This document shows positions 11,510-33,481 of a DNA stretch of 64,000 nt, piece by piece. The DNA is from Vicinamibacteria bacterium (GTDB taxonomy: Bacteria > Acidobacteriota > Vicinamibacteria > Vicinamibacterales > UBA8438), in NCBI GenBank assembly GCA_963578725.1, contig CAUZDS010000008.1, forward strand, positions 6,409 to 70,408. Direction: 5' to 3'. Position 1 is the stretch's first letter; each line of letters opens with the position of its first letter. The position numbers and the translations under genes were made by a program. The notes under the pieces are model-generated. The model was not told the origin of the DNA. It made no database searches and was given only the letters and a program-made list of their open reading frames with translations.

Positions 11510-11531
<22 letters not shown>

Positions 11532-13495
11532 TTACGGAACAGGCCTTTGGCGAACGGTGTCAGTCGTGTCTGGTTATAGGCATCGCCGATCTGTTGGATG
11601 GCTTCGGCGGTCGTCGGGTAGGGGTGAATGACTCTCGCCAGCGTGCCCAGGCCCATGCCCGCGCGCATCGCCACGCTGATCTCGCTGATCAGGTCACCCG
11701 CATGCCCGGCGACGATCGTCGCACCCAAGATCTCGTCGGTGCCTTTCCTTACGTGGATCTTAACGAATCCATTGTCGCCCTCGAGCACGGCTCGATCTAC
11801 GTCAGCGAGGTCTCGCGTGTACGTGGTGAATTCGATGTGTCGCGCCGCCATTTCCTTCGCATAGAGCCCCACGTGGGCCACTTCAGGCTCGGTATATGTG
11901 GACCAAGGAACAAGAAGACTCGATACCCGGTCGCGTCCGAGAAACAGCGCGTTCCGAATGACGATACGTGCCATGAAGTCGGCCATGTGCGTGAACTGAT
12001 ACCGGCTCGCCACGTCTCCCACCGCAAAGATGCGGGGGTTGGACGTCTGGAGCTTCTCGTTCACGTCAATACCTGAACGCGCGTCGAACATCACGCCCGC
12101 GGCCTCAAGCCCCAGCCCCGTCACACTTGGTTTGCGGCCGGTCGCCACCAACAGCGCATCTACTTCGTGCGACTCTTCCGTGCCCTCGCGCTCGATTACG
12201 ATCTTGACCGGGGGCTGACCATTGACGCTCGTGACCCTGATGCCGGTGACGTTGAATACGAACCGGACACCGTCACGCCTCATCGACGCTTCAACAACCT
12301 TCGCCGCATCCGCGTCCTCCCTGAAGAGGATCTGCCCTTCACGCGAGAACGCCGTGACATCCGAGCCGAAGCGCTGAAACGCCTGGGCAAGCTCCGTACC
12401 GATGGGACCCGTGCCGATCACGCCCAGCCGCTTGGGCAGCGACGTCAGGTTGAACACCGTGGCGTTGGTCAGATACGGTGTGTCGTCGAGACCGGGAATC
12501 GGCGGGATAGCCGCCGTTCCGCCGGTCGCGATCACCGCCTTGGAGAAAACCAGTGTCGTGCCGTCGACTTCGACGGTGCTCTCGCTGGTGAATCGGGCAC
12601 GTCCCATGAAGACGTCGACCCCCAGCTCGCGACTGAACCGCTCAGCTGAGTCGTTGGGCGCGATGTGCGCGCGCAGACGCCGCATGCGCTCCATGACCGC
12701 CGCGAAGTCGACCGAAATCGGTCCCCCGATGTTGATACCGTAGGTCGACGCATCACGTGCCGCCGCTGCCGCCCTGGCGCACCGAATGAGCGCCTTCGAA
12801 GGCACACAACCGACATTGAGACAGTCACCGCCAAGTAGGTGCGATTCGACGAGGGCGACACGAGCGCCGGTACCGGCGGCGCCGGCCGACGCCACGAGGC
12901 CTCCCGTACCGGCCCCGATGACGACCAGGTTGTACTTCTTCTTCGGCGTTGGGTTGACCCAGACCTTCGGGTGCGCACAATCCAGCAGCGCGGTGTTGTG
13001 CACGTCGAGGGGCGATATCCCGATGGTGTCGAGGTCGTCTTGGTGGAAGTTGCCCAGGTCCTGGTCGCGCTCGGGTATCGCCGGTTGAAGCGACAATGCT
13101 GGCTCTCGTATTTCCGTCACGGGGGCCAGAAAATCCGACCAGCTCACGGGGGTACCATCTGCTTTCTTCGCGGTCTGGCCGTGGTCTTCGTCGGCCGCGA
13201 AGCGATAGAACAGCCGCTCGTTCTTGAACGGGTGCTCTTTGACCACGTGGTGGAAGACGCCCGCGCTCAACAGCATATTCCCGATGCGTACCGCATCGTC
13301 TTCGTCGGCCGCGATGTTCTCGTCGATGAGGGCTCGAACGGCGTCGCTACCGACAAAGCACCTGGAATAGGTCTTCGGCGGAAACCCGTACTTACGATCA
13401 GTGATCTCGACGAGGTCTCGCAGTCGTGTGGACAGCATTTGCGAGTCGTCGAAGTTGAAGGACTCCTGCGGTCCTCCGCGGTCTGGAGCAGTCAT
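11510..13495 (-). CDS. DEP-domain-fused class-I pyridine nucleotide-disulfide oxidoreductase (FAD)
   Basis: 661 aa. The N-terminal ~100 aa (RLRDLVEITDRKYGFPPKTYSRCFVGSDAVRALIDENIAADEDDAVRIGNMLLSAGVFHHV) have a DEP-like pattern. They are followed by VVIGAGTGG, the redox disulfide GGDCLNVGCVPSK, an NAD site GVIGTGPIGTE, and the C-terminal HPYPTTAE His-Glu dyad. Confidence 0.85.
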
Positions 13496-25463: not shown

Positions 25464-26156
25464 ATGCAGGTCGTCTACCTCCATGGGTTCGCGTCGTCTC
25501 CAGCATCGTCGAAGGCACTGTTCCTGGGCGAGCGTCTGGCGGCGTGCGGCCTCACCTTGCAGTGTCCCGACCTTAACGCCCCAGATTTCTCCACGCTGAC
25601 TGTCTCGCGCATGGTCGCGCAGGTCGAGCACCTGATCCAGGGGCTCGCGCATGGGCCGGTCGCGCTGATCGGGTCGAGCCTGGGGGCGTTCGTCGCCGTG
25701 CAGGCCGCAGAGCGGAGCTGGCGTGCTGGCAGGTCCGCCGTTGGTGCGGCCGGCGCCGACCACCCGATCGCGTGGCTGGTGCTGCTGGCGCCGGCGCTCG
25801 ACTTCGGCGCCAACCGTATAAAAAACCTTGGGCCAGAGGGGCTCGCGCGCTGGCGCGCGAGCAACCGGCTGGAAGTGGAGCACTACGCTGAGGGGCGGGT
25901 CCGCCACGTGCACTACGAGTTGTATGAAGATGCCAGCCGGTACGACAGCTTCGCGGCCACGGCGGCGTTGCCGACGCTGATCCTCCAGGGTCGCCGAGAC
26001 GAGGTGGTCGATCCGGCGATGGTCGAGCGATACGCGCGCGACCGGCGCCACGTCACGCTGGTCCTGCTCGATGACGACCATCAGCTGAAGGCGAGTCTGG
26101 AGCAGGTCTGGCGTCAGACGGCCGGCTTTCTCGCGGTGACATCGTCGGCCGATTGA
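25464..26156 (+). CDS. YqiA-like alpha/beta-hydrolase (esterase)
   Basis: 230 aa. The N-terminus is MQVVYLHGFASSPASSKA. The nucleophile elbow is GSSLGA. The C-terminus has QGRRDEVV...DDDHQL. Confidence 0.75.
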   Translation: MQVVYLHGFASSPASSKALFLGERLAACGLTLQCPDLNAPDFSTLTVSRMVAQVEHLIQGLAHGPVALIGSSLGAFVAVQAAERSWRAGRSAVGAAGADHPIAWLVLLAPALDFGANRIKNLGPEGLARWRASNRLEVEHYAEGRVRHVHYELYEDASRYDSFAATAALPTLILQGRRDEVVDPAMVERYARDRRHVTLVLLDDDHQLKASLEQVWRQTAGFLAVTSSAD

Positions 26157-26193
26157 TCCCGTGTCGTGGCCGCCCTACGGCCCGCGGCAGTCC

Positions 26194-26204
26194 GGGGGGG
26201 GGGG
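26194..26204 (+). repeat. G11 homopolymer tract
   Basis: Eleven consecutive G, 55 nt upstream of the glycosyltransferase ATG at 26259. If the GTG at 26166 is the real start, the tract is inside the ORF. Confidence 0.9.
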
Positions 26205-26258
26205 CTGGCGCCGGTCGAGCACCGCGTGCGTGCTGACTCGGCACGAGGGTACAGGGCA

Positions 26259-26996
26259 ATGCGCAATCCCTTCGTCTCCGTGATCATTCCGGTTCTGCAC
26301 GACGCCGGACCGCTCGCCGAGCTGTTGGAGAGGTTGCATCCGACCGGCCGGGTCGAGGTGGTTGTCGCAAACGGCGATGCCGGGGACCCGGCGCTGGCCG
26401 CGGTTCGTCGGTTATGGCCAGCGGTCCAGTGGGTCGACAGTCCGCCTGGTCGCGGCCTCCAGATGAACGCCGGGGCGGCGCGCGCGGCGGGGCATTGGCT
26501 GCTGTTTCTGCATGCCGACGCACGGCTCGCCGACGGGTGGCTCGACGAGATCGGGCGAGCCGCCGCGGAGGGCGCCGTTGGCGGGTGCTATCGGCTCGAA
26601 ATCGACTCACCGCGCTGGCAGGCCCGGCTCATCGAGCGCGGGGTGCGCTGGCGGGTGTTCTGGCTTGGGCTGGCCTACGGTGACCAGGGGCTGTTCATCC
26701 GGCGCGATCTGTTTCACGCCATCGGTTGCTACCGGCTGATACCGGTGATGGAGGACGCGGACCTGGTGCGCCGGATGCGGCGTCACGGACGGTTTCGCCG
26801 GTCGGCCGTCGGCGTGTGCGTGTCAGCGAGACGCTGGGAGCGGGATGGCTGGGTCCGTCGTACCGCCTTGAACCTCTGGATCCTGCTGTTCTATCTGGCC
26901 GGCCGGCTGGGGTTGTTGTATCCAGTCTGGCAGGACCCGGTGGCGACCGTGTCCGAGTCCGGAAACCGGTCCGTCCCGCCGGCCGGACAGACCTGA
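26259..26996 (+). CDS. family-2 glycosyltransferase, TIGR04283-like (rSAM/selenodomain-associated, arsenosugar-type GT)
   Basis: The ATG at 26259 follows a GAGGG. The motif series is VSVIIPVL, GRGLQMNAGA, LLFLHADARL, AYGDQGLFIRR, PVMEDADLVRRMRR, SARRWERDGWVRRTALN. Confidence 0.8.
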   Translation: MRNPFVSVIIPVLHDAGPLAELLERLHPTGRVEVVVANGDAGDPALAAVRRLWPAVQWVDSPPGRGLQMNAGAARAAGHWLLFLHADARLADGWLDEIGRAAAEGAVGGCYRLEIDSPRWQARLIERGVRWRVFWLGLAYGDQGLFIRRDLFHAIGCYRLIPVMEDADLVRRMRRHGRFRRSAVGVCVSARRWERDGWVRRTALNLWILLFYLAGRLGLLYPVWQDPVATVSESGNRSVPPAGQT

Positions 26997-27159
26997 ACCC
27001 GAGACACGGCGGACGTTCGGTGTCGCGTATGGCGCGGGCACTGCCGGGCCCGTGCCGCTGACATCCCGTTGACAAGGTGCACGGTGCGGGAGGACCATGG
27101 CCCGGGGGAGGTGTATCTTTATTTCGCCCTTCCGCCGGCACATCGATTGGAGGCACCGA

Positions 27160-28119
27160 ATGTTGATCAAGCAGGCTCCAGACATCCGATCGTCGGAGAT
27201 TACCGACGAGCGGCTGTATCGCAACCGGCGGCAGTTCATCCAGACGGCCTCGGGTGCCATGGCCGGCGCCCTGGCCGGCGTGACCGTACTCGGTCGGTAC
27301 GGCGGCGTGGTGCAGGCGCAAGAGACGATTCCGAATCTGCGGCCGTCGCCGTTGAGCACCGACGAGAGCCCCAACTCGTACGAAGACATCACCAGCTACA
27401 ACAACTTCTACGAGTTCGGGTCGGACAAGGGTGACCCGGCACGCTACGCGGAGGAGATGACGATCGACCCCTGGTCGGTGCGGGTCGAGGGGCAGATGAA
27501 TACCCAGGCCGCCGACGTGGACATCGATGACCTCCTCCGTCCCCACACGCTCGAAGAGCGCGTCTATCGGCTGCGGTGCGTCGAGGCCTGGTCGATGGTC
27601 GTGCCGTGGGTCGGATTTCCGCTGGGCGACCTGATCAAGCGATTCGAGCCAACTTCGAGGGCCAATTTCGTGAAGTTCACGACGCTGTTGCGCCCCGACG
27701 AGATGCGGGGACAGCGGAGCCCGGTGTTGCGGTGGCCGTATGTCGAGGGGCTGCGTCTGGACGAGGCGATGCATCCGCTGACAATCCTGGCGGTCGGCGT
27801 GTACGGGAAGACCTTACTGAATCAGCAAGGCCCGCCGCTGCGTCTCGTCGTACCATGGAAATACGGGTTCAAGAGCATCAAGTCCATCGTTAAGATCGAG
27901 TTCGTCGAGGACCAGCCACGGAACTCCTGGAATATTTCCGCCCCGAACGAATACGGGTTCTATTCCAACGTGAATCCAGAGGTCAACCATCCCCGGTGGA
28001 GTCAGGCCAGCGAGCGCCGGATCGGCAAGTTCTTCCGGATCCGGACGCAGATGTTCAACGGCTACGCCGACCAGGTGGCGAGCCTCTACGATGGGATGGA
28101 CCTTCAGCGGGACTTCTGA
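27160..28119 (+). CDS. msrP: protein-methionine-sulfoxide reductase catalytic subunit MsrP (YedY)
   Basis: The ATG at 27160 follows a GGAGG. It has a Tat-like [14 protein letters not shown]...[17 protein letters not shown]...[15 protein letters not shown]...[14 protein letters not shown]...HPRWSQA is near-collinear with E. coli YedY. Confidence 0.95.
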
Positions 28120-28130
28120 GTACGAGGGGG

Positions 28131-28736
28131 ATGGGGGTGCGCCGTGTCAAGCCGTGGGTGTTCGCGGCGTGCCTCATCCCGCTCGGTCTTCTCGTCTGGC
28201 GGGGCGCCACCAATGGTCTCACGGCCAACCCGATCGAGTTCATCACCCACAGGACCGGCGACTGGACGCTGCGTTTTCTGCTGATCACCCTCGCAATCAC
28301 CCCGCTGCGAAGGGTGACCGCGTGGAGCAGCCTGGTACAGCTCCGACGGATGCTGGGACTGTTTGCCTTTTTCTACGCGGTGCTCCACTTCGGCACCTAT
28401 CTGGTGTTGGACTTCTTTTTCGCGTTCGACCTGATCCTCGATGACGTCGTGGAGCGCCGGTACGTCACCGCCGGGTTCACCGGGTTCGTGTTGCTGATTC
28501 CGCTGGCTGTCACTTCGACCCAGCGGATGATCCGCCGACTTGGCGGCGCGCGCTGGCGGCGGCTCCACCGTCTCGTGTATGGTGCCGCGCTGGCGGGGGT
28601 CGTGCACTATTTTTGGTTGGTCAAGGTCGACATCCGGCCGCCCCTGATGTACGCCATGATCCTGGGCCTGTTGCTCGGGGCGCGCGTGTGGTTCTGGTTG
28701 TCAAAAAAGGGCTCCGGAGTCTTGTCGCGAGCCTAG
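28131..28736 (+). CDS. msrQ: protein-methionine-sulfoxide reductase heme-binding subunit MsrQ (YedZ)
   Basis: ATG at 28131. KPWVFAACLIPLGLLVW...NPIEFITHRTGDWTLRFLLITLAITPLRR...FYAVLHF. Six TM segments, directly after msrP. Confidence 0.9.
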   Translation: MGVRRVKPWVFAACLIPLGLLVWRGATNGLTANPIEFITHRTGDWTLRFLLITLAITPLRRVTAWSSLVQLRRMLGLFAFFYAVLHFGTYLVLDFFFAFDLILDDVVERRYVTAGFTGFVLLIPLAVTSTQRMIRRLGGARWRRLHRLVYGAALAGVVHYFWLVKVDIRPPLMYAMILGLLLGARVWFWLSKKGSGVLSRA

Positions 28737-28835: not shown

Positions 28836-31400
28836 ATGCCACTGCACATTGAAGATGCGACCGTGCTTCGTGCCCCGGCCTGCTCCGTGCGGCAGGTGGC
28901 GGGTGGCGCCGTCACGCTCGACCCGGCGAAACCGCACTGGATCGGCACCGACGAGCGCGGGTTCCGGCTGCTCGGCCGCTTCGACGGTCGGACCGTGTTC
29001 GCACAGGTGGTGCGGGACTATGCCACCGAGTCCGGACTCGACGTCGCCCGTGCCTGGCTCCACGTCGAGACGTTCGCGCATGACGGACTCCGGCACGGTT
29101 TTCTGTCGACGGATGGGGCGGCGCCGGCACCGTATCTCGGCCGGTCGGCGTATCTGGACACGGAACGGTTGCACGAGCTGTGGATCCAGATTAACGACTT
29201 CTGTAACCTCAGCTGCGGCCATTGCTTGGTGTCATCGGGGCCCGATCGTTCACAGGGACTGCCGACCGAACGGATCACCGCCGCGATTGATCAGGCGGTC
29301 GGGCTAGGAGCCGAACGGCTCTTCTTCACTGGTGGCGAGCCGCTGGCCCGGCCGGACCTGCTCGATCTCGCGGAACGTGTCGTGGGGACCCACGGTCGTG
29401 AGCTGGTCATTCTCACCAACGGCACGCTCTTCCAGCGCGAGCGCCTGGAGCGCCTGGCCCAGCTGGCCACGACGGCGGAGGCTCGGACCGTTCCGTCTGC
29501 CGCGGGCCAAGCGGGCGGGCGCGGCGTCGCAGCTGCGCGGAGTCGAGGGGGGCTTCGGCTTCAGATCAGCCTCGACGGCCCGACCGCCGCGGTTAACGAC
29601 CCGATCCGCGGGGAGGGGACGTTCGATCGCATTCTGGGCGGGCTGGACCGCGCCGTTGAGGCCGGGTTGCGGCCGACGCTGACCGCCACGATCTTGCGCC
29701 ATAATCTCCAGTCGCTTGACGAGATCGTCTGCCTGGCGGCGGCGCACGGCGTGCGCAATGTCCATCTACTCTGGCCTCACCGCCGGGGCCGTGTGCTCGA
29801 TGGGGCGCTCGGCGACTTACCGAGTGCCCAGGAGATTCTTGCCGCGGTGCGCCGGGCGCGCGCGGTGGCGACCGAGCTCGGGGTTTGGATCGACAACATC
29901 GAGGAGTTCCGGTTGCGCCTCGACGGTACCCCGGGCGTGAAGAACGACCTGTCCGGCGCCGGTTGGAGCAGCTTGTGTCTCTACACCGACGGGTGCGTGT
30001 ATCCGTCGGCCTCGCTGGCGGGGATACCCGAGCTGCGCTGCGGCGATCTTGGGCAGCAGGATCTGGAGACCATCTGGAAGACGAGCGAGGTCTGTCGCGA
30101 CCTGCGTGAAGCCACCGTCGAACAGAAGCCGATCTGCCGCTCGTGCAACCTCAGGTTTCTGTGCGGCGGCGGCGACGTGGAGCACGCGTACTGGCCGGCG
30201 GCCGCCGCCGGACAGGACCGGCGATCCGCCTTCGTGGCGCATGATCCGTATTGCGAGCTTTACGAAGGGCTGGCGGACGATACGTTTGCGGATCTGCTGC
30301 GGGAGGGGCGGGCGACGGCCCAGCCGCGTTCCGGCTACGACCGGCCGGTGGTCATTCGTGGCATGGGCGAGCAGACGTTGCACGACGAGGACGCGATTGT
30401 TCGCACGACGCACTCGGCCTGCGTTCTCTCCGAGGAGGTGCTCGATCGGTCGCGACTGACGGTGCGCGAGTTCTATGGTGAGGCGGCCGAGCAGCCACAG
30501 GCCGAGCTCTGCTGTCCGGTGCAACCGGACGCCGCGGACCTCGATCATATTCCTAAAGCGGTCGTGGAGCGATTCTACGGATGCGGTAGTCCCGTGACGG
30601 CGGCATCGCTCGTGGCAGGGGAATCGCTGGTGGACCTTGGTTCAGGCGCCGGTATCGACTGCTTCATCGCCGCGAAGCTAGTGGGTGCCGAGGGGCGGGT
30701 CTACGGTGTCGACATGACAGACCAGATGCTGTCGGTCGCCCGCGAATGCCAGTCAGAGGTGGCCGCCGCGCTCGGCTACGATGCGGTGGAGTTCCGCAAG
30801 GGCTACCTGGAGGAGATTCCGGTCGACGACACGAGCGTCGACGTCGTGACCTCGAACTGCGTCATCAATCTGTCACCGGACAAGCCGCGTGTTTTCAGAG
30901 AGATCTGGCGGGTGTTGAAGGACCACGGACGGCTGGTCGTGGCCGACATCGTGTCCGACCGTGAGGTGCCACCACGCATGCGTGCCGACGGACGGCTCTG
31001 GGGCGAGTGCATCTCGGGCGCGTTGACCGAGGAGGCGTTTCTCGCCGGGCTCGAGAAAGCGGGGTTCTACGGGGTCTCGGTCCTCAAGAAGACGTTCTGG
31101 CGCGAGGTTGAGGGCTGCCGGTTCGACTCGGTGACTGTCCAGGGCTACAAGTTCGAGAAGAAAGCGGGCTGCCGATTTGTCGGGCAGTATGCTGTCTATC
31201 TTGGTCCGCAGAAGGCGGTGGTCGACGAAGAGGGCCATCTGTTCCCGCGCGGCCAGGCGGTCGAGGTTTGCACCGACACCGCCGCCAAGCTGTCGCACGC
31301 TCCGTATGCCTGCGCTTTCACTATCGTTGATGGTCCCCACGGCGCCGGTGATGTTACCGCCGGTGACGACGACCCTGACTGCGGCCCCTGCTGCTGCTAG
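28836..31400 (+). CDS. PqqD/RRE-like + radical SAM/SPASM + ArsM-type SAM-dependent arsenite methyltransferase fusion protein
   Basis: 854-aa ORF. A PqqD-like segment covers about aa 30-95. The radical-SAM motif CNLSCGHC lies at nt 29202-29225, followed by FFTGGEPL. The SPASM-like Cys cluster is CLYTDGC...CRSCNLRFLCGGG...HDPYC. ArsM-type motifs are ELCCP, FYGCGSP, LVDLGSGAGIDCF, SNCVINLSPDK and LWGECISGAL. The tail is DPDCGPCCC. Confidence 0.85.
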   Translation: MPLHIEDATVLRAPACSVRQVAGGAVTLDPAKPHWIGTDERGFRLLGRFDGRTVFAQVVRDYATESGLDVARAWLHVETFAHDGLRHGFLSTDGAAPAPYLGRSAYLDTERLHELWIQINDFCNLSCGHCLVSSGPDRSQGLPTERITAAIDQAVGLGAERLFFTGGEPLARPDLLDLAERVVGTHGRELVILTNGTLFQRERLERLAQLATTAEARTVPSAAGQAGGRGVAAARSRGGLRLQISLDGPTAAVNDPIRGEGTFDRILGGLDRAVEAGLRPTLTATILRHNLQSLDEIVCLAAAHGVRNVHLLWPHRRGRVLDGALGDLPSAQEILAAVRRARAVATELGVWIDNIEEFRLRLDGTPGVKNDLSGAGWSSLCLYTDGCVYPSASLAGIPELRCGDLGQQDLETIWKTSEVCRDLREATVEQKPICRSCNLRFLCGGGDVEHAYWPAAAAGQDRRSAFVAHDPYCELYEGLADDTFADLLREGRATAQPRSGYDRPVVIRGMGEQTLHDEDAIVRTTHSACVLSEEVLDRSRLTVREFYGEAAEQPQAELCCPVQPDAADLDHIPKAVVERFYGCGSPVTAASLVAGESLVDLGSGAGIDCFIAAKLVGAEGRVYGVDMTDQMLSVARECQSEVAAALGYDAVEFRKGYLEEIPVDDTSVDVVTSNCVINLSPDKPRVFREIWRVLKDHGRLVVADIVSDREVPPRMRADGRLWGECISGALTEEAFLAGLEKAGFYGVSVLKKTFWREVEGCRFDSVTVQGYKFEKKAGCRFVGQYAVYLGPQKAVVDEEGHLFPRGQAVEVCTDTAAKLSHAPYACAFTIVDGPHGAGDVTAGDDDPDCGPCCC

Positions 31401-31655: not shown

Positions 31656-32804
31656 CTAGAAGACCTTGCGTTGTTGCGCAGTGCCGTGCGCGGCCAGCGT
31701 AAACCGCGCTTCAGGCGTCGCACGATCGGAAAGCTGCGCCGTGACGTACTCGCCGACGGCTGGGCCGTGCTTGAAGCCGTGTCCAGACCCGCCGCCCACC
31801 AGCCACACGTTGTCCATCTCCGGGTGTCGGTCGATAATGAAGTCACCGTTCGAGCTGTTCGAGTACTGGCAGACGTGCGCTTCGAGCAGTGGCGCGGCGT
31901 CGAGGGCGGGGACGCGGCGGGTGAGGATCATGCGCGCGACCTCGAGAGCGCCGTCCGAAACGCGCCGCTCGCCGAGATCGGGGTCGAATGGTGGTCCGTG
32001 GTGGTCGAGACCCACCTTGAAGCCGCGCCCTTCCAGGTCCGGGACTCCATAGACGCCACCAGCGAAGTCGACCCACGCCGGCATCGCCGGGGGCGCGAAC
32101 CGCCGGTCGCCGGGCGCGGAGCCGAAGAAGAATACCTCCTGACGTGTTGGATGAATCCGGTCACCGAGCGTGGCGGGAAACAACGTGGGTAGCCACGGGC
32201 CGCAGGCGAAGACAAACGTGCCGGCTGTGATCCGGTCGCCGTCACTCGTGCGCACCGACTCGAGGTGTTCGGTGTCTGCCGGCGGGGTCACTGCTGTGAT
32301 GCGGTAGTCGACGCTCTGCCTGACCGCCTGACGCACGACCGCCTGCACGGCGCGCCGGGCCATGATGACACCCGCTTCGGACTCGAGCACGCCGCGCGTG
32401 ACGGGACCGAAGCTGAGCTGCGGATATCGCCGCTCGAGCTCGGCCCGGTCGAGGATCTCGAACGGCACGCGGAGTCGGCGCAGCGTATCCACGGTCTCAT
32501 CGGTCATCGGGTCGTCCGATCGGGTCATCCACAGGACGCCGGTCTGCGTGAAGAGCTCCAGACGTCCGTCCCGGAAGAGCTCTAGCCACGCGGTCAACGA
32601 GCGTTGCGCCCAGCGCGAGTAGAGCGCGTCGTGGCCGTATCCGATGCGGAAGACGCGGGAGATGCCACCGGAACTGGACCGGGTGTTGCCGGCACCGAAC
32701 GCGTCGACCAGCGTCACCGATCGTCCGCTCCGGCGGAGCTGAAGGGCCGTCCAGGCGCCGAAGACACCGGCGCCGATCACGGCAACATCGGAGACATGAG
32801 ACAT
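31656..32804 (-). CDS. FAD-dependent oxidoreductase (DAO / sarcosine-oxidase-like family)
   Basis: The ATG at 32804 gives MSHVSDVAVIGAGVFGAWTALQLRRSGRSVTLVDA (GxGxxG). The protein runs about 382 aa, with GGSGHGFKHGP near the C-terminus. Confidence 0.85.
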   Translation of the reverse strand: MSHVSDVAVIGAGVFGAWTALQLRRSGRSVTLVDAFGAGNTRSSSGGISRVFRIGYGHDALYSRWAQRSLTAWLELFRDGRLELFTQTGVLWMTRSDDPMTDETVDTLRRLRVPFEILDRAELERRYPQLSFGPVTRGVLESEAGVIMARRAVQAVVRQAVRQSVDYRITAVTPPADTEHLESVRTSDGDRITAGTFVFACGPWLPTLFPATLGDRIHPTRQEVFFFGSAPGDRRFAPPAMPAWVDFAGGVYGVPDLEGRGFKVGLDHHGPPFDPDLGERRVSDGALEVARMILTRRVPALDAAPLLEAHVCQYSNSSNGDFIIDRHPEMDNVWLVGGGSGHGFKHGPAVGEYVTAQLSDRATPEARFTLAAHGTAQQRKVF

Positions 32805-32842
32805 TGATTCGAAACCGGAATGGAACGTGTAGAGTAGCACCA

Positions 32843-33481
32843 ATGTCCGCACGCCGTATCGAGGTCTGTCCGGATGCTGTGCACCTGCCGGCGTACCTCA
32901 CGCTCGATGCGCAACGGGCGCTCGCCGAGCGCTGCCGGTCGATCGGCATGAGTCCGACGGGCTGGTATGTCCCGACGGTGCGTGGAGGCGGTCGGATGCG
33001 CGTGCGGATGGTCTGTTTAGGGCGGCACTGGAATGCCCGGACATACCGCTACGAGGCGGTGCGCAGCGACTACGATGGCCTCCCGGCTCCGGCGCTGCCG
33101 GCCGACCTGGCCGTGCTCGCGTCTCGGCTCGCGGCGGACGCCGGGATGCGTCTGACCCCGGACGTCTGCATTCTCAACCACTACAATCTGGACGGGAAGA
33201 TGGGGCTGCACCAGGACAAGGACGAGGATCCAGACACGCTGGAAAGCGGGGTTCCGATCGTATCGGTGTCCATTGGGGACACGGCGAAGTTCATCCTGGG
33301 CGGCCGTACGCGTCGCGACACCAGGACGACGGTGCTCCTGGCGTCTGGTGATGGGTTCGTCTTCGGTGGGCGGAGTCGTTTGCGTTACCACGGTGTCGCG
33401 GCACTGCTGCCCGGTACCGCCCCCCCGGAACTTGGGCTCGAGGGCCGGTTCAACCTCACGTTTCGGCAGGGCGCGGTCTAG
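32843..33481 (+). CDS. alkB: Fe(II)/2-oxoglutarate-dependent dioxygenase AlkB
   Basis: The ATG at 32843 starts a product containing ILNHYNLDGKMGLHQDKDE...PIVSVSIGDTAKF...RLRYHGV...RFNLTFRQ. The HxD...H facial triad and the RxNxTxR motif are present. Confidence 0.9.
   Translation: MSARRIEVCPDAVHLPAYLTLDAQRALAERCRSIGMSPTGWYVPTVRGGGRMRVRMVCLGRHWNARTYRYEAVRSDYDGLPAPALPADLAVLASRLAADAGMRLTPDVCILNHYNLDGKMGLHQDKDEDPDTLESGVPIVSVSIGDTAKFILGGRTRRDTRTTVLLASGDGFVFGGRSRLRYHGVAALLPGTAPPELGLEGRFNLTFRQGAV

What the first reader, a model, noticed from the sequence alone, without database searches (positions are those of the whole stretch)
28836..31400. One ORF fuses a PqqD/RRE-like domain, a radical-SAM/SPASM domain and a complete ArsM-type arsenite methyltransferase
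Seen in the sequence: a single uninterrupted 854-codon ORF. Residues ~30-95 (HWIGTDERGFRLLGRFDGRTVFAQVVRDYATESGLDVARAWLHVETFAHDGLRHGFL) follow the PqqD / RiPP-recognition-element pattern. CNLSCGHC (nt 29202-29225) is a canonical CX3CX2C radical-SAM motif and is followed by FFTGGEPL. A SPASM/twitch-like Cys cluster follows (CLYTDGC...RCGDLG...CRSCNLRFLCGGG...HDPYC, nt ~29976-30260). From about nt 30460 there is a full ArsM-like module: ELCCP (C559/C560), FYGCGSP, LVDLGSGAGIDCF, SNCVINLSPDK (C675), LWGECISGAL (C725), an ArsM-type C-terminal domain and a Cys-rich tail DPDCGPCCC. The 50-residue C675-C725 spacing equals the C174-C224 spacing I recall for CmArsM. Established knowledge: these cysteines bind As(III) in ArsM. 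In the two known pathways that combine radical-SAM chemistry with ArsM (arsenosugar, ArsM + ArsS; arsinothricin, ArsL + ArsM), the enzymes are separate proteins and the rSAM partner is not an RRE/SPASM-type maturase. Inference: the fusion could couple arsenic (or another soft metalloid) methylation to radical C-As or C-C chemistry. Alternatively, given the RRE-like domain, it could act on a peptide substrate. I do not know of a characterised enzyme with this architecture.
Basis: partly seen in the sequence, partly recalled or inferred. Interest (0 to 1): 0.8.

Follow-up and report, generated by a model that had tools for sequence, protein, structure and literature searches.

The report
Radical-SAM enzyme fused to arsenic methyltransferase
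This soil-bacterium gene really does fuse a radical-SAM enzyme to an arsenic methyltransferase; the fusion is conserved in hundreds of uncultured bacteria and sits where the known arsenosugar radical enzyme ArsS normally sits, so it is probably an undescribed way of building carbon-arsenic compounds.

Summary
Window 28836-31400 (+) is one uninterrupted 854-codon ORF with five parts: a PqqD/RRE-like domain, a radical-SAM core, a partly degenerate SPASM domain, a complete ArsM module and a Cys-rich tail ending in CC. It is not an assembly artefact. Full-length copies occur in more than 440 protein clusters, and relatives in 298 species genomes across 15 or more phyla, all MAGs. NCBI names it only 'methyltransferase domain-containing protein', and I found no paper on it.

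All four ArsM arsenic-binding cysteines are present and invariant in 54 diverse members. The new evidence is genomic context. The fusion recurs next to the TIGR04283 and TIGR04282 'arsenosugar biosynthesis' transferases, a TVP38/DedA protein, an FAD disulfide reductase, thioredoxin plus CcdA, and an ECF sigma factor. The same set surrounds bona fide arsS on a Burkholderia glumae plasmid. No ArsS occurs in any of the 85 loci examined. The radical-SAM half is not an ArsS homologue (49.9 bits against a cut-off of 300).

Best reading: a bifunctional organoarsenical synthase in which an RRE/SPASM-type radical-SAM module replaces ArsS. No activity has been tested. I class it as a new variant of a known kind; interest 0.72.

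The parts
28836..31400 (+). Whole 854-codon ORF: RRE-like domain, radical-SAM core, SPASM-like domain, bridge, ArsM module and Cys tail
   Evidence: uninterrupted ORF. (full-length homologues in many phyla). (AF2 with 90 sequences: mean pLDDT 88.2, pTM 0.87).
28863..29105 (+). PqqD/RRE-like winged-helix domain (residues ~10-90)
   Evidence: Pfam PqqD 13.9 bits, sub-threshold, but covering 2-66/67 of the profile. Family profile hits TbiB1 RRE at E 3.7e-4, with PqqD and TfuB1 also listed. Relatives score above the gathering score. AF2 gives strands 17-21, 24-29, 34-38 and helices 40-48, 55-66, 70-86.
29163..29885 (+). Radical-SAM core (residues ~110-350). CX3CX2C is at nt 29202-29225 (C123, C127, C130) and GGEP at residues 166-169. 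It contains a lineage-specific disordered loop at about residues 208-238.
   Evidence: Pfam PF04055 82.4 bits. The three Cys and GGEP are invariant in 54 and in 90 sequences. The loop has pLDDT below 50 at residues 221-236 and is present only in Vicinamibacterales relatives.
29928..30320 (+). SPASM-like domain (residues ~365-495). The AuxII-type Cys C434, C437, C443 and C473 are present. The AuxI site is incomplete: C381 is invariant, C402 is variable, and the invariant D447 sits where the fourth Cys of CX2CX5CX3C would be.
   Evidence: Pfam SPASM 23.5 bits against a gathering score of 21.5. Cys conservation table. Foldseek hits to anSME, SuiB, SkfB and PqqE.
30321..30443 (+). Bridge segment with the invariant motif H-S-x-C-V-L (C529, nt 30420-30422). 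It belongs to the radical-SAM module, not to ArsM.
   Evidence: C529 is invariant in 54 of 54 sequences. Stand-alone relatives end just after the HCxCVL motif (L088).
30444..31355 (+). Complete ArsM-type arsenite methyltransferase module (residues ~537-840). Cys positions: C559/C560 nt 30510-30515; C583 nt 30582-30584; C675 nt 30858-30860; C725 nt 31008-31010.
   Evidence: PDB phmmer: CrArsM E 6.9e-41, CmArsM E 1.3e-38, AS3MT E 8e-38, aligned through the C-terminal domain. Foldseek E 1e-23 to 1e-20. NF008823 237.9 bits against a cut-off of 263. All five Cys are invariant.
31356..31397 (+). Disordered Cys-rich tail ending in CC (C849, C852, C853, C854)
   Evidence: C853 and C854 are invariant in 54 of 54 sequences, C849 in 45 of 54. 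Family consensus is ...C-[DS]-P-x-x-G-C-C at the C terminus. pLDDT is below 50 for residues 843-854.
26166..26996 (+). GT2 glycosyltransferase of family TIGR04283 ('arsenosugar biosynthesis glycosyltransferase'), same strand, 1.8 kb upstream
   Evidence: NCBIfam 212.4 bits against a cut-off of 182. Homologues are named 'rSAM/selenodomain-associated transferase 2' by JGI and TIGR04283 by NCBI. The family lies near the fusion in at least 19 further loci.
25464..26156 (+). UPF0227 alpha/beta-hydrolase directly upstream of the GT2. It is a conserved neighbour only within Vicinamibacterales, so its membership in the system is uncertain.
   Evidence: Pfam PF05728. Cluster C14 in L005, L006, L007, L010, L011 and L014. 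Also seen in L001 and L002.
11519..13009 (-). FAD-dependent pyridine-nucleotide disulfide oxidoreductase of the type that accompanies the fusion and ArsS elsewhere. Here it lies 16 kb away, so its membership is uncertain.
   Evidence: tblastn: 55% identity to the C2 cluster representative and 43% to the B. glumae TVP38/FAD protein. The C2 representative matches NF004991 at 821.7 bits.

Best explanation
The gene encodes a bifunctional organoarsenical-biosynthesis enzyme of an arsenosugar-type pathway.

Inferred mechanism, in three steps:
1. The C-terminal ArsM module binds As(III) through C559/C560, C583, C675 and C725 and methylates it with SAM, probably to dimethylarsenite.
2. The N-terminal radical-SAM module reductively cleaves a second SAM at the C123/C127/C130 [4Fe-4S] cluster. 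It then makes a further carbon-arsenic bond. The simplest model is addition of the 5'-deoxyadenosyl radical to the arsenic, as ArsS does.
3. The product passes to the co-encoded TIGR04283 and TIGR04282 transferases.

The invariant terminal CC tail, C381 and C529 may hold or shuttle the arsenical between the two active sites. The RRE-like domain may dock that tail, or a partner protein, rather than a RiPP leader peptide.

What is shown: the architecture, residue conservation, predicted fold and gene neighbourhood. What is inferred: every catalytic step, the order of methylation and radical addition, and the role of the RRE.
For: (1) The ArsM module is complete. The best PDB sequence matches are ArsM/AS3MT at E 7e-41 to 2e-37, aligned through the C-terminal domain. 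Foldseek E-values are 7e-23 to 4e-20. C583, C675 and C725 map to CmArsM C72, C174 and C224. C559, C560, C583, C675 and C725 are invariant in 54 sequences from 15 or more phyla.

(2) The radical-SAM core is intact and invariant: CX3CX2C and GGEP.

(3) The fusion is ancient and selected. 298 species genomes encode a relative, and 79 of 85 loci carry a full-length gene.

(4) Neighbourhood. At least 28 of 79 loci, plus the window, L001 and L002, carry TIGR04283 and/or TIGR04282 within 10 kb, often with gaps of 3-80 bp. Recurrent neighbours are a PHO4/PiT permease (18 loci), an FAD disulfide reductase (18), DedA/VTT (13), DUF547 (13), TlpA-like thioredoxin (12), CcdA (5) and an ECF sigma factor (7).

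(5) An annotated bona fide arsS cluster on B. glumae plasmid NZ_CP100267.1 holds TIGR04283, TIGR04282, a TVP38/FAD-reductase fusion, thioredoxin, CcdA and an ECF sigma factor. Seven of my neighbour-cluster HMMs hit that locus.

(6) No ArsS is present in any of the 85 loci or in the 64-kb window.

(7) In L088 a stand-alone homologue of the radical-SAM module lies between TIGR04283 (234.6 bits, cut-off 182) and TIGR04282 (194.6 bits, cut-off 134), with overlapping stop and start codons. So the radical-SAM module, not ArsM, is the core partner of the two transferases.

(8) ArsS is known to adenosylate DMAs(III) to DDMAA (PMC13598754).
Against: - No biochemical data exist for any member.
- The radical-SAM half is not homologous to ArsS beyond the generic core: TIGR04167 49.9 bits against 300, and 31% identity over 80-163 residues. 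Its nearest relatives are hydrogen-abstracting peptide and cofactor maturases (MftC, ScmF, AhbD, SkfB, SuiB, anSME) rather than adenosyl-adding enzymes.
- An RRE-like domain is unexplained for a small-molecule substrate.
- The 'arsenosugar' names of TIGR04282 and TIGR04283 are themselves guilt-by-association annotations.
- The accessory module can occur with neither the fusion nor ArsS within 10 kb (L087).
- About 60% of fusion loci show neither transferase within 10 kb, including some with full flanks.
- No classical ars genes (arsR, acr3, arsC) and no MTA phosphorylase are nearby.
- The ArsM half is below NCBIfam's curated cut-offs.
- Absence of ArsS could be tested only locally, not genome-wide.
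Confidence: 0.55

Rival explanations
1. Same arsenic pathway context, but different radical chemistry. The SPASM-type module abstracts a hydrogen from a carbon substrate such as a lipid, sugar or peptide side chain. The resulting carbon radical attacks ArsM-bound As(III), giving an organoarsenical other than the adenosyl adduct, for example an arsenolipid precursor. Alternatively, the module tailors a downstream intermediate.
For: The nearest sequence and fold relatives are all hydrogen-abstracting SPASM enzymes. The neighbours have a membrane-lipid or glycolipid flavour: DedA/VTT, GT87-like GT-C, a flippase-like protein, FA_hydroxylase, and a Tes-like radical-SAM protein in Vicinamibacterales. 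Long forms that carry DUF5714 lack the first Cys pair, which fits methylation of an already alkylated arsenical.
Against: No candidate carbon substrate or carrier is conserved next to the gene. Sharing of accessory genes with ArsS clusters argues for the same product class. The auxiliary-cluster Cys are not conserved across the wider family.
Confidence: 0.2
2. A RiPP or protein maturase unrelated to arsenic. The RRE recruits a Cys-rich peptide, the radical-SAM/SPASM domain cross-links or oxidises it, and the ArsM-like domain methylates a thiol or another group.
For: The RRE-like domain is real. The fold is closest to SkfB, SuiB, ChlB and anSME. The invariant Cys-rich tail could itself be a substrate.
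Against: No conserved small ORF of 18-90 aa lies beside the gene in 79 loci; every cluster found was an out-of-frame shadow of a real gene. The four ArsM arsenic-binding Cys are invariant. The neighbours are those of the arsS cluster, with no RiPP protease or exporter.
Confidence: 0.1
3. An ordinary arsenic-detoxifying methyltransferase with an accessory radical-SAM domain. That domain supplies electrons or an Fe-S redox function, for example reduction of pentavalent intermediates, or it has lost catalysis.
For: ArsM homologues fused to redox or Cys-rich domains exist: the NCBIfam models ArsM_AhpD_UU and ArsM_DUF2284_UU appear among the hits, and DUF5714 fusions occur in this family. Thiol-redox neighbours are common.
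Against: The SAM-cleaving motif CX3CX2C and GGEP are invariant across phyla, which argues for real radical-SAM catalysis. The stand-alone radical-SAM form keeps its place between the two transferases without ArsM. No ars resistance genes are adjacent.
Confidence: 0.1
4. Assembly or annotation artefact: two adjacent genes joined by a missed stop or frameshift.
For: None beyond the general possibility. One MAG (L021) shows the gene split in two.
Against: The same continuous ORF occurs in 79 independent loci and more than 440 clusters, on contigs up to 6.9 Mb. The junction segment is conserved, with C529 invariant, and is confidently modelled.
Confidence: 0.01

Closest known systems
ArsM + ArsS of arsenosugar biosynthesis (Synechocystis; ArsS = TIGR04167, a radical SAM (seleno)protein)
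   Same: Both combine an As(III) SAM-methyltransferase with a radical-SAM enzyme. Both share accessory genes: TIGR04283, TIGR04282, TVP38/DedA, FAD disulfide reductase, thioredoxin plus CcdA, and an ECF sigma factor. Both radical-SAM modules carry a Cys-containing motif near their C-terminal end...HCFGC... in B. glumae ArsS and H-S/C-x-C-V-L here (seen by eye only).
   Different: Here the two activities sit on one polypeptide. The radical-SAM half is not an ArsS homologue (49.9 bits against 300). It has no DUF3641 domain. It instead has an N-terminal RRE-like domain and a SPASM-like domain. No MTA phosphorylase is nearby.
ArsL + ArsM of arsinothricin biosynthesis (Burkholderia gladioli arsQML)
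   Same: A radical-SAM-type C-As bond formation is paired with ArsM methylation. The AST-type ArsM model NF040538 scores 209.9 bits on this protein.
   Different: ArsL and ArsM are separate genes (PMC8552651 abstract). ArsL is a noncanonical radical-SAM enzyme that transfers the 3-amino-3-carboxypropyl group (bioRxiv 10.1101/2024.02.01.577332 abstract). The 209.9 bits are well below the cut-off of 500. There is no arsQ-like permease here.
RRE-bearing radical SAM/SPASM RiPP maturases (SuiB, SkfB, CteB, ChlB) and MftC/PqqE
   Same: Same domain order of RRE, radical-SAM core and SPASM. These are the best fold matches for the N-terminal half. The best HMM is MftC at 110.9 bits.
   Different: The protein is below every curated family cut-off. 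The AuxI Cys set is incomplete, and the AuxII Cys are lost in part of the family. There is no co-encoded precursor peptide. It is fused to ArsM.
CmArsM / CrArsM / human AS3MT (solved structures)
   Same: 33-35% identity over about 300 residues. Same three-part fold, including the C-terminal domain, and all four conserved Cys.
   Different: Those are stand-alone enzymes of about 320-400 residues. Here the ArsM module is the C-terminal 37% of a radical-SAM protein, and it carries an invariant terminal CC.

Membership tests
ArsM / AS3MT arsenite S-adenosylmethionine methyltransferase | Class I SAM-methyltransferase fold with a glycine-rich SAM motif | tested here: met
   Methyltransf_31 110.7 bits; the motif DLGSGAG is present. 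Foldseek matches ArsM structures at E ~1e-22.
ArsM / AS3MT arsenite S-adenosylmethionine methyltransferase | Four conserved As(III)-binding cysteines (CmArsM C44, C72, C174, C224) | tested here: met
   C583=C72, C675=C174 and C725=C224 by residue-by-residue alignment; C559 aligns with the N-terminal Cys of CrArsM. All are invariant in 54 sequences.
ArsM / AS3MT arsenite S-adenosylmethionine methyltransferase | ArsM-type C-terminal domain | tested here: met
   Alignments run to query residues 829-832 and chain residues 338-341. About 300 columns align in Foldseek.
ArsM / AS3MT arsenite S-adenosylmethionine methyltransferase | Score above NCBIfam curated cut-offs | tested here: not met
   NF008823 237.9 against 263. 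NF040538 209.9 against 500. NF038099 (AsSugarArsM) 165.3 against 400. For NF008823 the miss is narrow, with only profile positions 39-235 of 272 matched.
ArsM / AS3MT arsenite S-adenosylmethionine methyltransferase | Methylates As(III) with SAM | not testable with these tools
   Needs an enzyme assay.
ArsS (TIGR04167, arsenosugar radical SAM (seleno)protein) | Sequence membership: HMM above cut-off and a DUF3641 Cys-rich C-terminal domain | tested here: not met
   TIGR04167 49.9 bits against 300, matching only profile positions 3-115 of 303. No DUF3641 appears in the Pfam output. Identity to B. glumae ArsS is 31% over 80 residues.
ArsS (TIGR04167, arsenosugar radical SAM (seleno)protein) | Gene neighbourhood with TIGR04283 and TIGR04282 transferases, TVP38/FAD reductase and thioredoxin/CcdA | tested here: met
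   (fusion loci). (stand-alone form between both transferases). (reference arsS locus shares seven families).
ArsS (TIGR04167, arsenosugar radical SAM (seleno)protein) | 5'-deoxyadenosylation of DMAs(III) | not testable with these tools
   Needs an anaerobic enzyme assay with LC-ICP-MS or ESI-MS.
Radical SAM / SPASM maturases with RRE | CX3CX2C cluster motif and GGE SAM-binding motif | tested here: met
   C123, C127, C130 and G166-G167-E168-P169 are invariant.
Radical SAM / SPASM maturases with RRE | SPASM domain with seven Cys for two auxiliary [4Fe-4S] clusters | tested here: inconclusive
   Pfam SPASM scores 23.5 against 21.5. The AuxII-type Cys are present here, and in 42-48 of 54 relatives. 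At the AuxI site only C381 is invariant, C387 occurs in 5 of 54, C402 in 37 of 54, and D447 replaces the fourth Cys. More distant members lack the CX2CX5C motif altogether.
Radical SAM / SPASM maturases with RRE | PqqD-like RiPP recognition element | tested here: inconclusive
   This protein is sub-threshold at 13.9 bits against 23.4. The family profile hits the TbiB1 RRE at E 3.7e-4. P0139 scores 39.9 bits and P0131 27.6 bits. The AF2 fold is compatible.
Radical SAM / SPASM maturases with RRE | Co-encoded precursor peptide | tested here: not met
   No conserved ORF of 18-90 aa lies within 2.5 kb of the gene in 79 loci. None lies downstream in the window.
Radical SAM / SPASM maturases with RRE | Membership of a named family (MftC, PqqE, ScmF, AhbD, NirJ, anSME...) | tested here: not met
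   The best is MftC at 110.9 against 265; all others are further below their cut-offs.

The most novel reading that the evidence does not exclude
The radical-SAM half is a new class of carbon-arsenic bond-forming radical enzyme that evolved from a RiPP maturase. Its RRE now docks the enzyme's own invariant Cys-rich tail, or a partner's tail, which carries the arsenical like a swinging arm between the ArsM and radical-SAM active sites. The product is an organoarsenical that may differ from the cyanobacterial adenosyl adduct, possibly a precursor of arsenic-containing membrane lipids. It would be made by abundant uncultured soil, groundwater and sediment bacteria: Vicinamibacterales, Nitrospirota, anammox Planctomycetota, Dadabacteria and others.
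Probability: 0.2. Interest if true: 0.88.

Novelty: new variant of a known kind. Interest (0 to 1): 0.72.

Why it matters
1. It points to a second, non-orthologous solution for radical C-As bond formation. Only two are known, ArsS and ArsL. The candidate is easy to express and test.

2. The family is widespread, in 298 species-level genomes across 15 or more phyla, all uncultured. Organoarsenical (arsenosugar or arsenolipid-type) biosynthesis may therefore be common in soils, aquifers and sediments, not only in cyanobacteria and algae.

3. Environmental surveys that count arsM genes by homology would score these genes as arsenic-methylating (volatilising or detoxifying) capacity. If they are biosynthetic fusions, abundant arsM signals from groups such as Acidobacteriota would need reinterpretation. 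This is my inference, not a tested result.

4. It would be an RRE-like domain working outside RiPP biosynthesis, and a SPASM domain whose auxiliary-cluster ligands are being lost. Both are of interest for radical-SAM enzymology.

Tried and rejected
- Single-sequence AF2 gave an unusable model (pLDDT 36). It was replaced by a run with a 90-sequence alignment.
- Model coordinates are not exposed, so I could not measure distances between the Cys residues and the two active sites.
- The nine-sequence alignment A2 was too divergent for the search for related loci. The four-sequence alignment A3 worked.
- The afdb50 fold library was unavailable.
- Precursor peptide search: 2981 small ORFs around 79 loci were clustered, and every recurrent cluster was an antisense or out-of-frame shadow of a real gene. 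The 57-aa ORF called downstream in L001 has no counterpart in the window.
- Classical ars genes: the remaining recurrent neighbour clusters look, by inspection of the sequences (no Pfam scan was run on them), like an ECF sigma factor, PhoH, a response regulator, CcdA, AspS, a SET domain protein, a transglutaminase-like protein, malic enzyme and a histidine kinase. I saw no ArsR, Acr3 or ArsC.
- ArsS search: none in the loci or the window.
- Plasmid database: the radical-SAM half has only MftC-like relatives at 30% identity or less.
- Literature: eight full-text searches found no description of a radical-SAM-ArsM fusion or of DUF5714. The library lacks most subscription-journal papers, so a prior mention cannot be excluded.
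- I had expected the accessory module always to accompany the fusion. L087 shows it without the fusion, and many fusion loci lack it.

Full report
OBSERVATION

Window 28836-31400 (+) is a single 854-codon ORF with no stop. A GAGG lies 7 nt before the ATG. The N terminus matches those of homologues. GC3 is 0.80 in a window of 65% GC, as for the neighbouring genes.

Pfam gives Radical_SAM at residues 118-210 (82.4 bits), SPASM at 375-438 (23.5 bits, gathering score 21.5) and Methyltransf_31 at 594-731 (110.7 bits). PqqD is not detected in the whole-protein scan. On the isolated N terminus it scores 13.9 bits (E 0.069, gathering score 23.4), although it spans the whole profile.

IS THE FUSION REAL?

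Yes. A first database search returned more than 120 clusters at 68-99% identity. All are 820-880 residues long with 92-100% coverage, on contigs up to 6.9 Mb. A scan of one genome per species found relatives in 298 genomes. In 79 of the 85 loci held, a simple ORF caller recovers a full-length gene covering query residues ~3-853.

The taxa are Vicinamibacterales/Acidobacteriota (61-81% identity, so the window is very likely from this order), Nitrospirota and Planctomycetota including Brocadiales and Scalindua. They also include Gemmatimonadota, Dadabacteria, Thermodesulfobacteriota, Wallbacteria, Lindowbacteria and Latescibacterota. Zixibacteria, Calditrichota, Elusimicrobiota, Spirochaetia, Dehalococcoidia and Hydrogenedentota are represented too. 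All are MAGs. Source names are only 'methyltransferase domain-containing protein' (NCBI) or 'radical SAM protein with 4Fe4S-binding SPASM domain' (JGI).

ANATOMY

AF2 with a 90-sequence alignment gives mean pLDDT 88.2 and pTM 0.87. The pTM value suggests that the relative placement of the domains is modelled with some confidence. Low confidence is confined to residues 221-236, 534-536 and 843-854.

(a) Residues ~10-90: three strands followed by helices. A profile of this region from 27 family members hits the lasso-peptide RRE TbiB1 (E 3.7e-4), PqqD, PqqC/D and TfuB1 among the top six PDB sequences. The relatives P0139 and P0131 score 39.9 and 27.6 bits on Pfam PqqD. Several other relatives carry precomputed PF05402 hits. 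The RRE-like assignment is therefore sound at family level.

(b) Residues ~110-350: radical-SAM core. C123, C127, C130 and GGEP are invariant. A disordered Ala/Gly/Arg-rich loop at ~208-238 is specific to Vicinamibacterales.

(c) Residues ~365-495: SPASM-like domain. The window protein has the CX2CX5C plus distal Cys set (C434, C437, C443, C473). In 54 diverse members these are kept in only 47, 47, 48 and 42 sequences, and they are missing in more distant members. Of the usual first-cluster ligands only C381 is invariant. C387 occurs in 5 of 54 and C402 in 37 of 54. The invariant D447 occupies the position of the fourth Cys of CX2CX5CX3C. The GGGD-x-EH motif is conserved in most members but becomes GGGC in P0131 and P0139. 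The auxiliary-cluster content therefore cannot be predicted.

(d) Residues 496-536: a conserved bridge with the invariant C529 in H-S-x-C-V-L. Stand-alone relatives of the radical-SAM module end a few residues after this motif, for example '...FHCACVLTTENGCEPCCG'. So the motif closes the radical-SAM module and is not part of ArsM.

(e) Residues 537-840: a complete ArsM.
- The best PDB sequence matches are CrArsM (E 6.9e-41), CmArsM (1.3e-38) and human AS3MT (8e-38), aligned through the C-terminal domain.
- Foldseek ranks thirteen ArsM/AS3MT chains first, at 32-35% identity over about 290-310 columns.
- From the printed alignment, C583=C72, C675=C174 and C725=C224 of CmArsM. C559 aligns with the N-terminal Cys of CrArsM.
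- C559, C560, C583, C675 and C725 are invariant in 54 sequences.
- PDB titles themselves name C72 and C224 as arsenic-site residues.
- NCBIfam's arsenite methyltransferase model scores 237.9 bits, just under its cut-off of 263. The arsinothricin-ArsM and arsenosugar-ArsM models are far below theirs.

(f) Residues 841-854: a disordered tail. The last two residues are CC in 54 of 54 sequences. The family consensus is C-[DS]-P-x-x-G-C-C.

WHAT THE RADICAL-SAM HALF IS NOT

It is not ArsS. TIGR04167 scores 49.9 bits against 300 and matches only the generic core. B. glumae ArsS aligns at 31% over 80 residues. Its best named relative is MftC (110.9 against 265), followed by ScmF, AhbD, Rv1681-type, StsB and NirJ2, all below cut-off. 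Fold matches are SkfB, SuiB (480-504 columns, so the RRE is included), anSME (TM 0.74-0.78 on the target), ChlB, BlsE and PqqE.

CONTEXT: THE DECISIVE NEW EVIDENCE

In the window the genes run on the + strand in this order: UPF0227 hydrolase (25464-26156), GT2 (26166-26996), MsrP (27097-28119), MsrQ (to 28736), then the fusion. The GT2 is a TIGR04283 'arsenosugar biosynthesis glycosyltransferase' at 212.4 bits against a cut-off of 182.

I clustered the ORFs of 85 loci and annotated the cluster representatives. The following families recur, mostly on the same strand and often within tens of bases:

| Neighbour family | Loci |
|---|---|
| TIGR04283 | 19, plus the window, L001 and L002, which my ORF caller missed |
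| TIGR04282/DUF2064 (201.8 bits against 134) | 13, usually the next gene |
| PHO4/PiT permease | 18 |
| FAD disulfide reductase NF004991 | 18 |
| DedA/VTT | 13 |
| DUF547 | 13 |
| TlpA-like thioredoxin | 12 |
| DUF3179 | 9 |
| GT87-like GT-C | 8 |
| CelA-like GT2 | 8 |
| DUF3047 | 6 |
| CcdA | 5 |
| ECF sigma factor | 7 |

An annotated reference is the Burkholderia glumae plasmid NZ_CP100267.1. It carries arsS beside thioredoxin, CcdA, an ECF sigma factor with a zf-HC2 protein, an MFS transporter, MTA phosphorylase, TIGR04283, TIGR04282, an FAD oxidoreductase and a TVP38/FAD-oxidoreductase fusion. HMMs built from seven of my neighbour clusters all hit that locus, for example the FAD reductase at E 2.5e-168 and TIGR04283 at E 1.3e-77.

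No ArsS-like gene is present in any of the 85 loci or anywhere in the 64-kb window.

In L088 a 522-residue stand-alone RRE-radical-SAM-SPASM homologue lies between TIGR04283 (234.6 bits) and TIGR04282 (194.6 bits), with overlapping stop and start codons. It is preceded by DedA, a flippase-like protein and a C-GCAxxG-C-C (seleno)protein. The radical-SAM module of this family therefore occupies the genomic niche of ArsS.

MECHANISM

I commit to the following, with all catalytic steps inferred. The ArsM module makes methylated As(III). The radical-SAM module adds a further carbon to arsenic, most simply the 5'-deoxyadenosyl radical, as shown for ArsS (PMC13598754, read). The transferases then process the product.

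The terminal CC tail, C381 and C529 are candidates for holding the arsenical. Stand-alone radical-SAM forms carry their own Cys-rich tail, which ties that tail to the radical-SAM function. The RRE may bind the tail or a partner protein.

The order of steps is open. Long relatives of 1000-1079 residues add a C-terminal DUF5714 domain and replace the CC pair by V-N. From established CmArsM work, recalled rather than tested here, the first Cys pair is needed for methylating inorganic As(III) but not MAs(III). This hints that in those forms the radical step may come first.

EVIDENCE AGAINST, AND LIMITS

- No member has been assayed.
- The closest relatives of the radical-SAM half are hydrogen abstractors.
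- The 'arsenosugar' names of TIGR04282 and TIGR04283 are associative.
- The accessory module occurs without the fusion or ArsS in L087.
- Roughly 60% of fusion loci show neither transferase within 10 kb.
- No ars resistance genes or MTA phosphorylase are adjacent.
- Genome-wide exclusivity with ArsS could not be tested.

COMPARISON AND NOVELTY

It works like ArsM plus ArsS, but it is a member of the ArsM fold family only. It is not a member of ArsS or of any named SPASM family. Eight full-text searches found no description of it. I class it as a new variant of a known kind: an arsenosugar-type system with a non-orthologous, RRE/SPASM-type radical-SAM enzyme fused to ArsM.

Confidence is 0.55 for the organoarsenical-synthase reading and about 0.99 that the fusion is real. 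Interest is 0.72.

Noticed in passing
window 27097-28119 and ~28136-28736 (+): An MsrP (molybdopterin oxidoreductase) and MsrQ (ferric-reductase-like membrane haem protein) pair lies between the TIGR04283 GT2 and the fusion, on the same strand. In other Vicinamibacterales (L002, L014) a GT-C (MptA_B/GT87-like) gene occupies this slot instead. Whether MsrPQ acts on As=O or S=O compounds here is unknown.
   Followed up: partly
window 11519-13009 (-): An FAD-dependent disulfide oxidoreductase, 55% identical to the type that flanks the fusion elsewhere and 43% to the B. glumae arsS-cluster TVP38/FAD protein. It lies 16 kb from the fusion. My GC3 filter had not listed it.
   Followed up: partly
L002 12768-14930; also L007, L010, L011, L014, L051, and L087 17283-19367: A radical-SAM protein of about 700 aa with an HMPTM-type zinc ribbon (Tes/MJ0619-like) lies 0.2-2 kb downstream of the fusion in several Vicinamibacterales, and in the fusion-less module of L087. 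It is absent from the window. It could relate to membrane-spanning lipid synthesis in Acidobacteriota.
   Followed up: partly
proteins P0130, P0138, P0142, P0148, P0186 (no loci): Long relatives of 1000-1079 aa add a C-terminal Cys-rich DUF5714 domain, sometimes after repeated CC-x-P linkers. They replace the first ArsM Cys pair (CC) by V-N and lack the SPASM CX2CX5C motif. No paper in the library mentions DUF5714.
   Followed up: partly
L088 5089-10230: An operon-like run: DedA, a flippase-like protein (TIGR00374), a C-GCAxxG-C-C (seleno)protein, TIGR04283, a stand-alone RRE-radical-SAM-SPASM protein (522 aa, tail ...CEPCCG), then TIGR04282. No ArsM lies within 8 kb; the only nearby methyltransferase is UbiE/MenG-type.
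   Followed up: yes
18 of 79 fusion loci, e.g. L039, L047, L054, L062, L070, L071, L073, L075: A PHO4/PiT-family permease (phosphate, and so potentially arsenate, or sulfate) lies directly beside the fusion or one gene away. This suggests coupled uptake or a link to phosphate limitation. It is not present in the window.
   Followed up: partly
window 29457-29549 (residues ~208-238): An Ala/Gly/Arg-rich, variable-length disordered insertion inside the radical-SAM barrel. It is found only in the Vicinamibacterales branch (30 of 90 aligned sequences have more than 14 residues here).
   Followed up: yes
L021 4047-6520: In one Acidobacteriota MAG the gene is split into two ORFs (query residues 1-153 and 178-854). 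This is either a frameshift or assembly error, or a pseudogene.
   Followed up: no
window 32804-32852: The AlkB-like 2OG-Fe(II) oxygenase ORF (32804-33481, +) and the DAO-family FAD oxidoreductase ORF (31656-32852, -) overlap at their 5' ends by 49 nt as called. The start codons are uncertain. The same divergent pair occurs in L001.
   Followed up: no
L089 1164-2147 (B. glumae ArsS) versus window 30414-30431: ArsS ends with ...ADHCFGCTAGQGSSCSG, and this family's radical-SAM module ends with H-S/C-x-C-V-L. Both therefore have a His-Cys motif near the C-terminal end of the radical-SAM module. This is a resemblance seen by eye, not tested.
   Followed up: no
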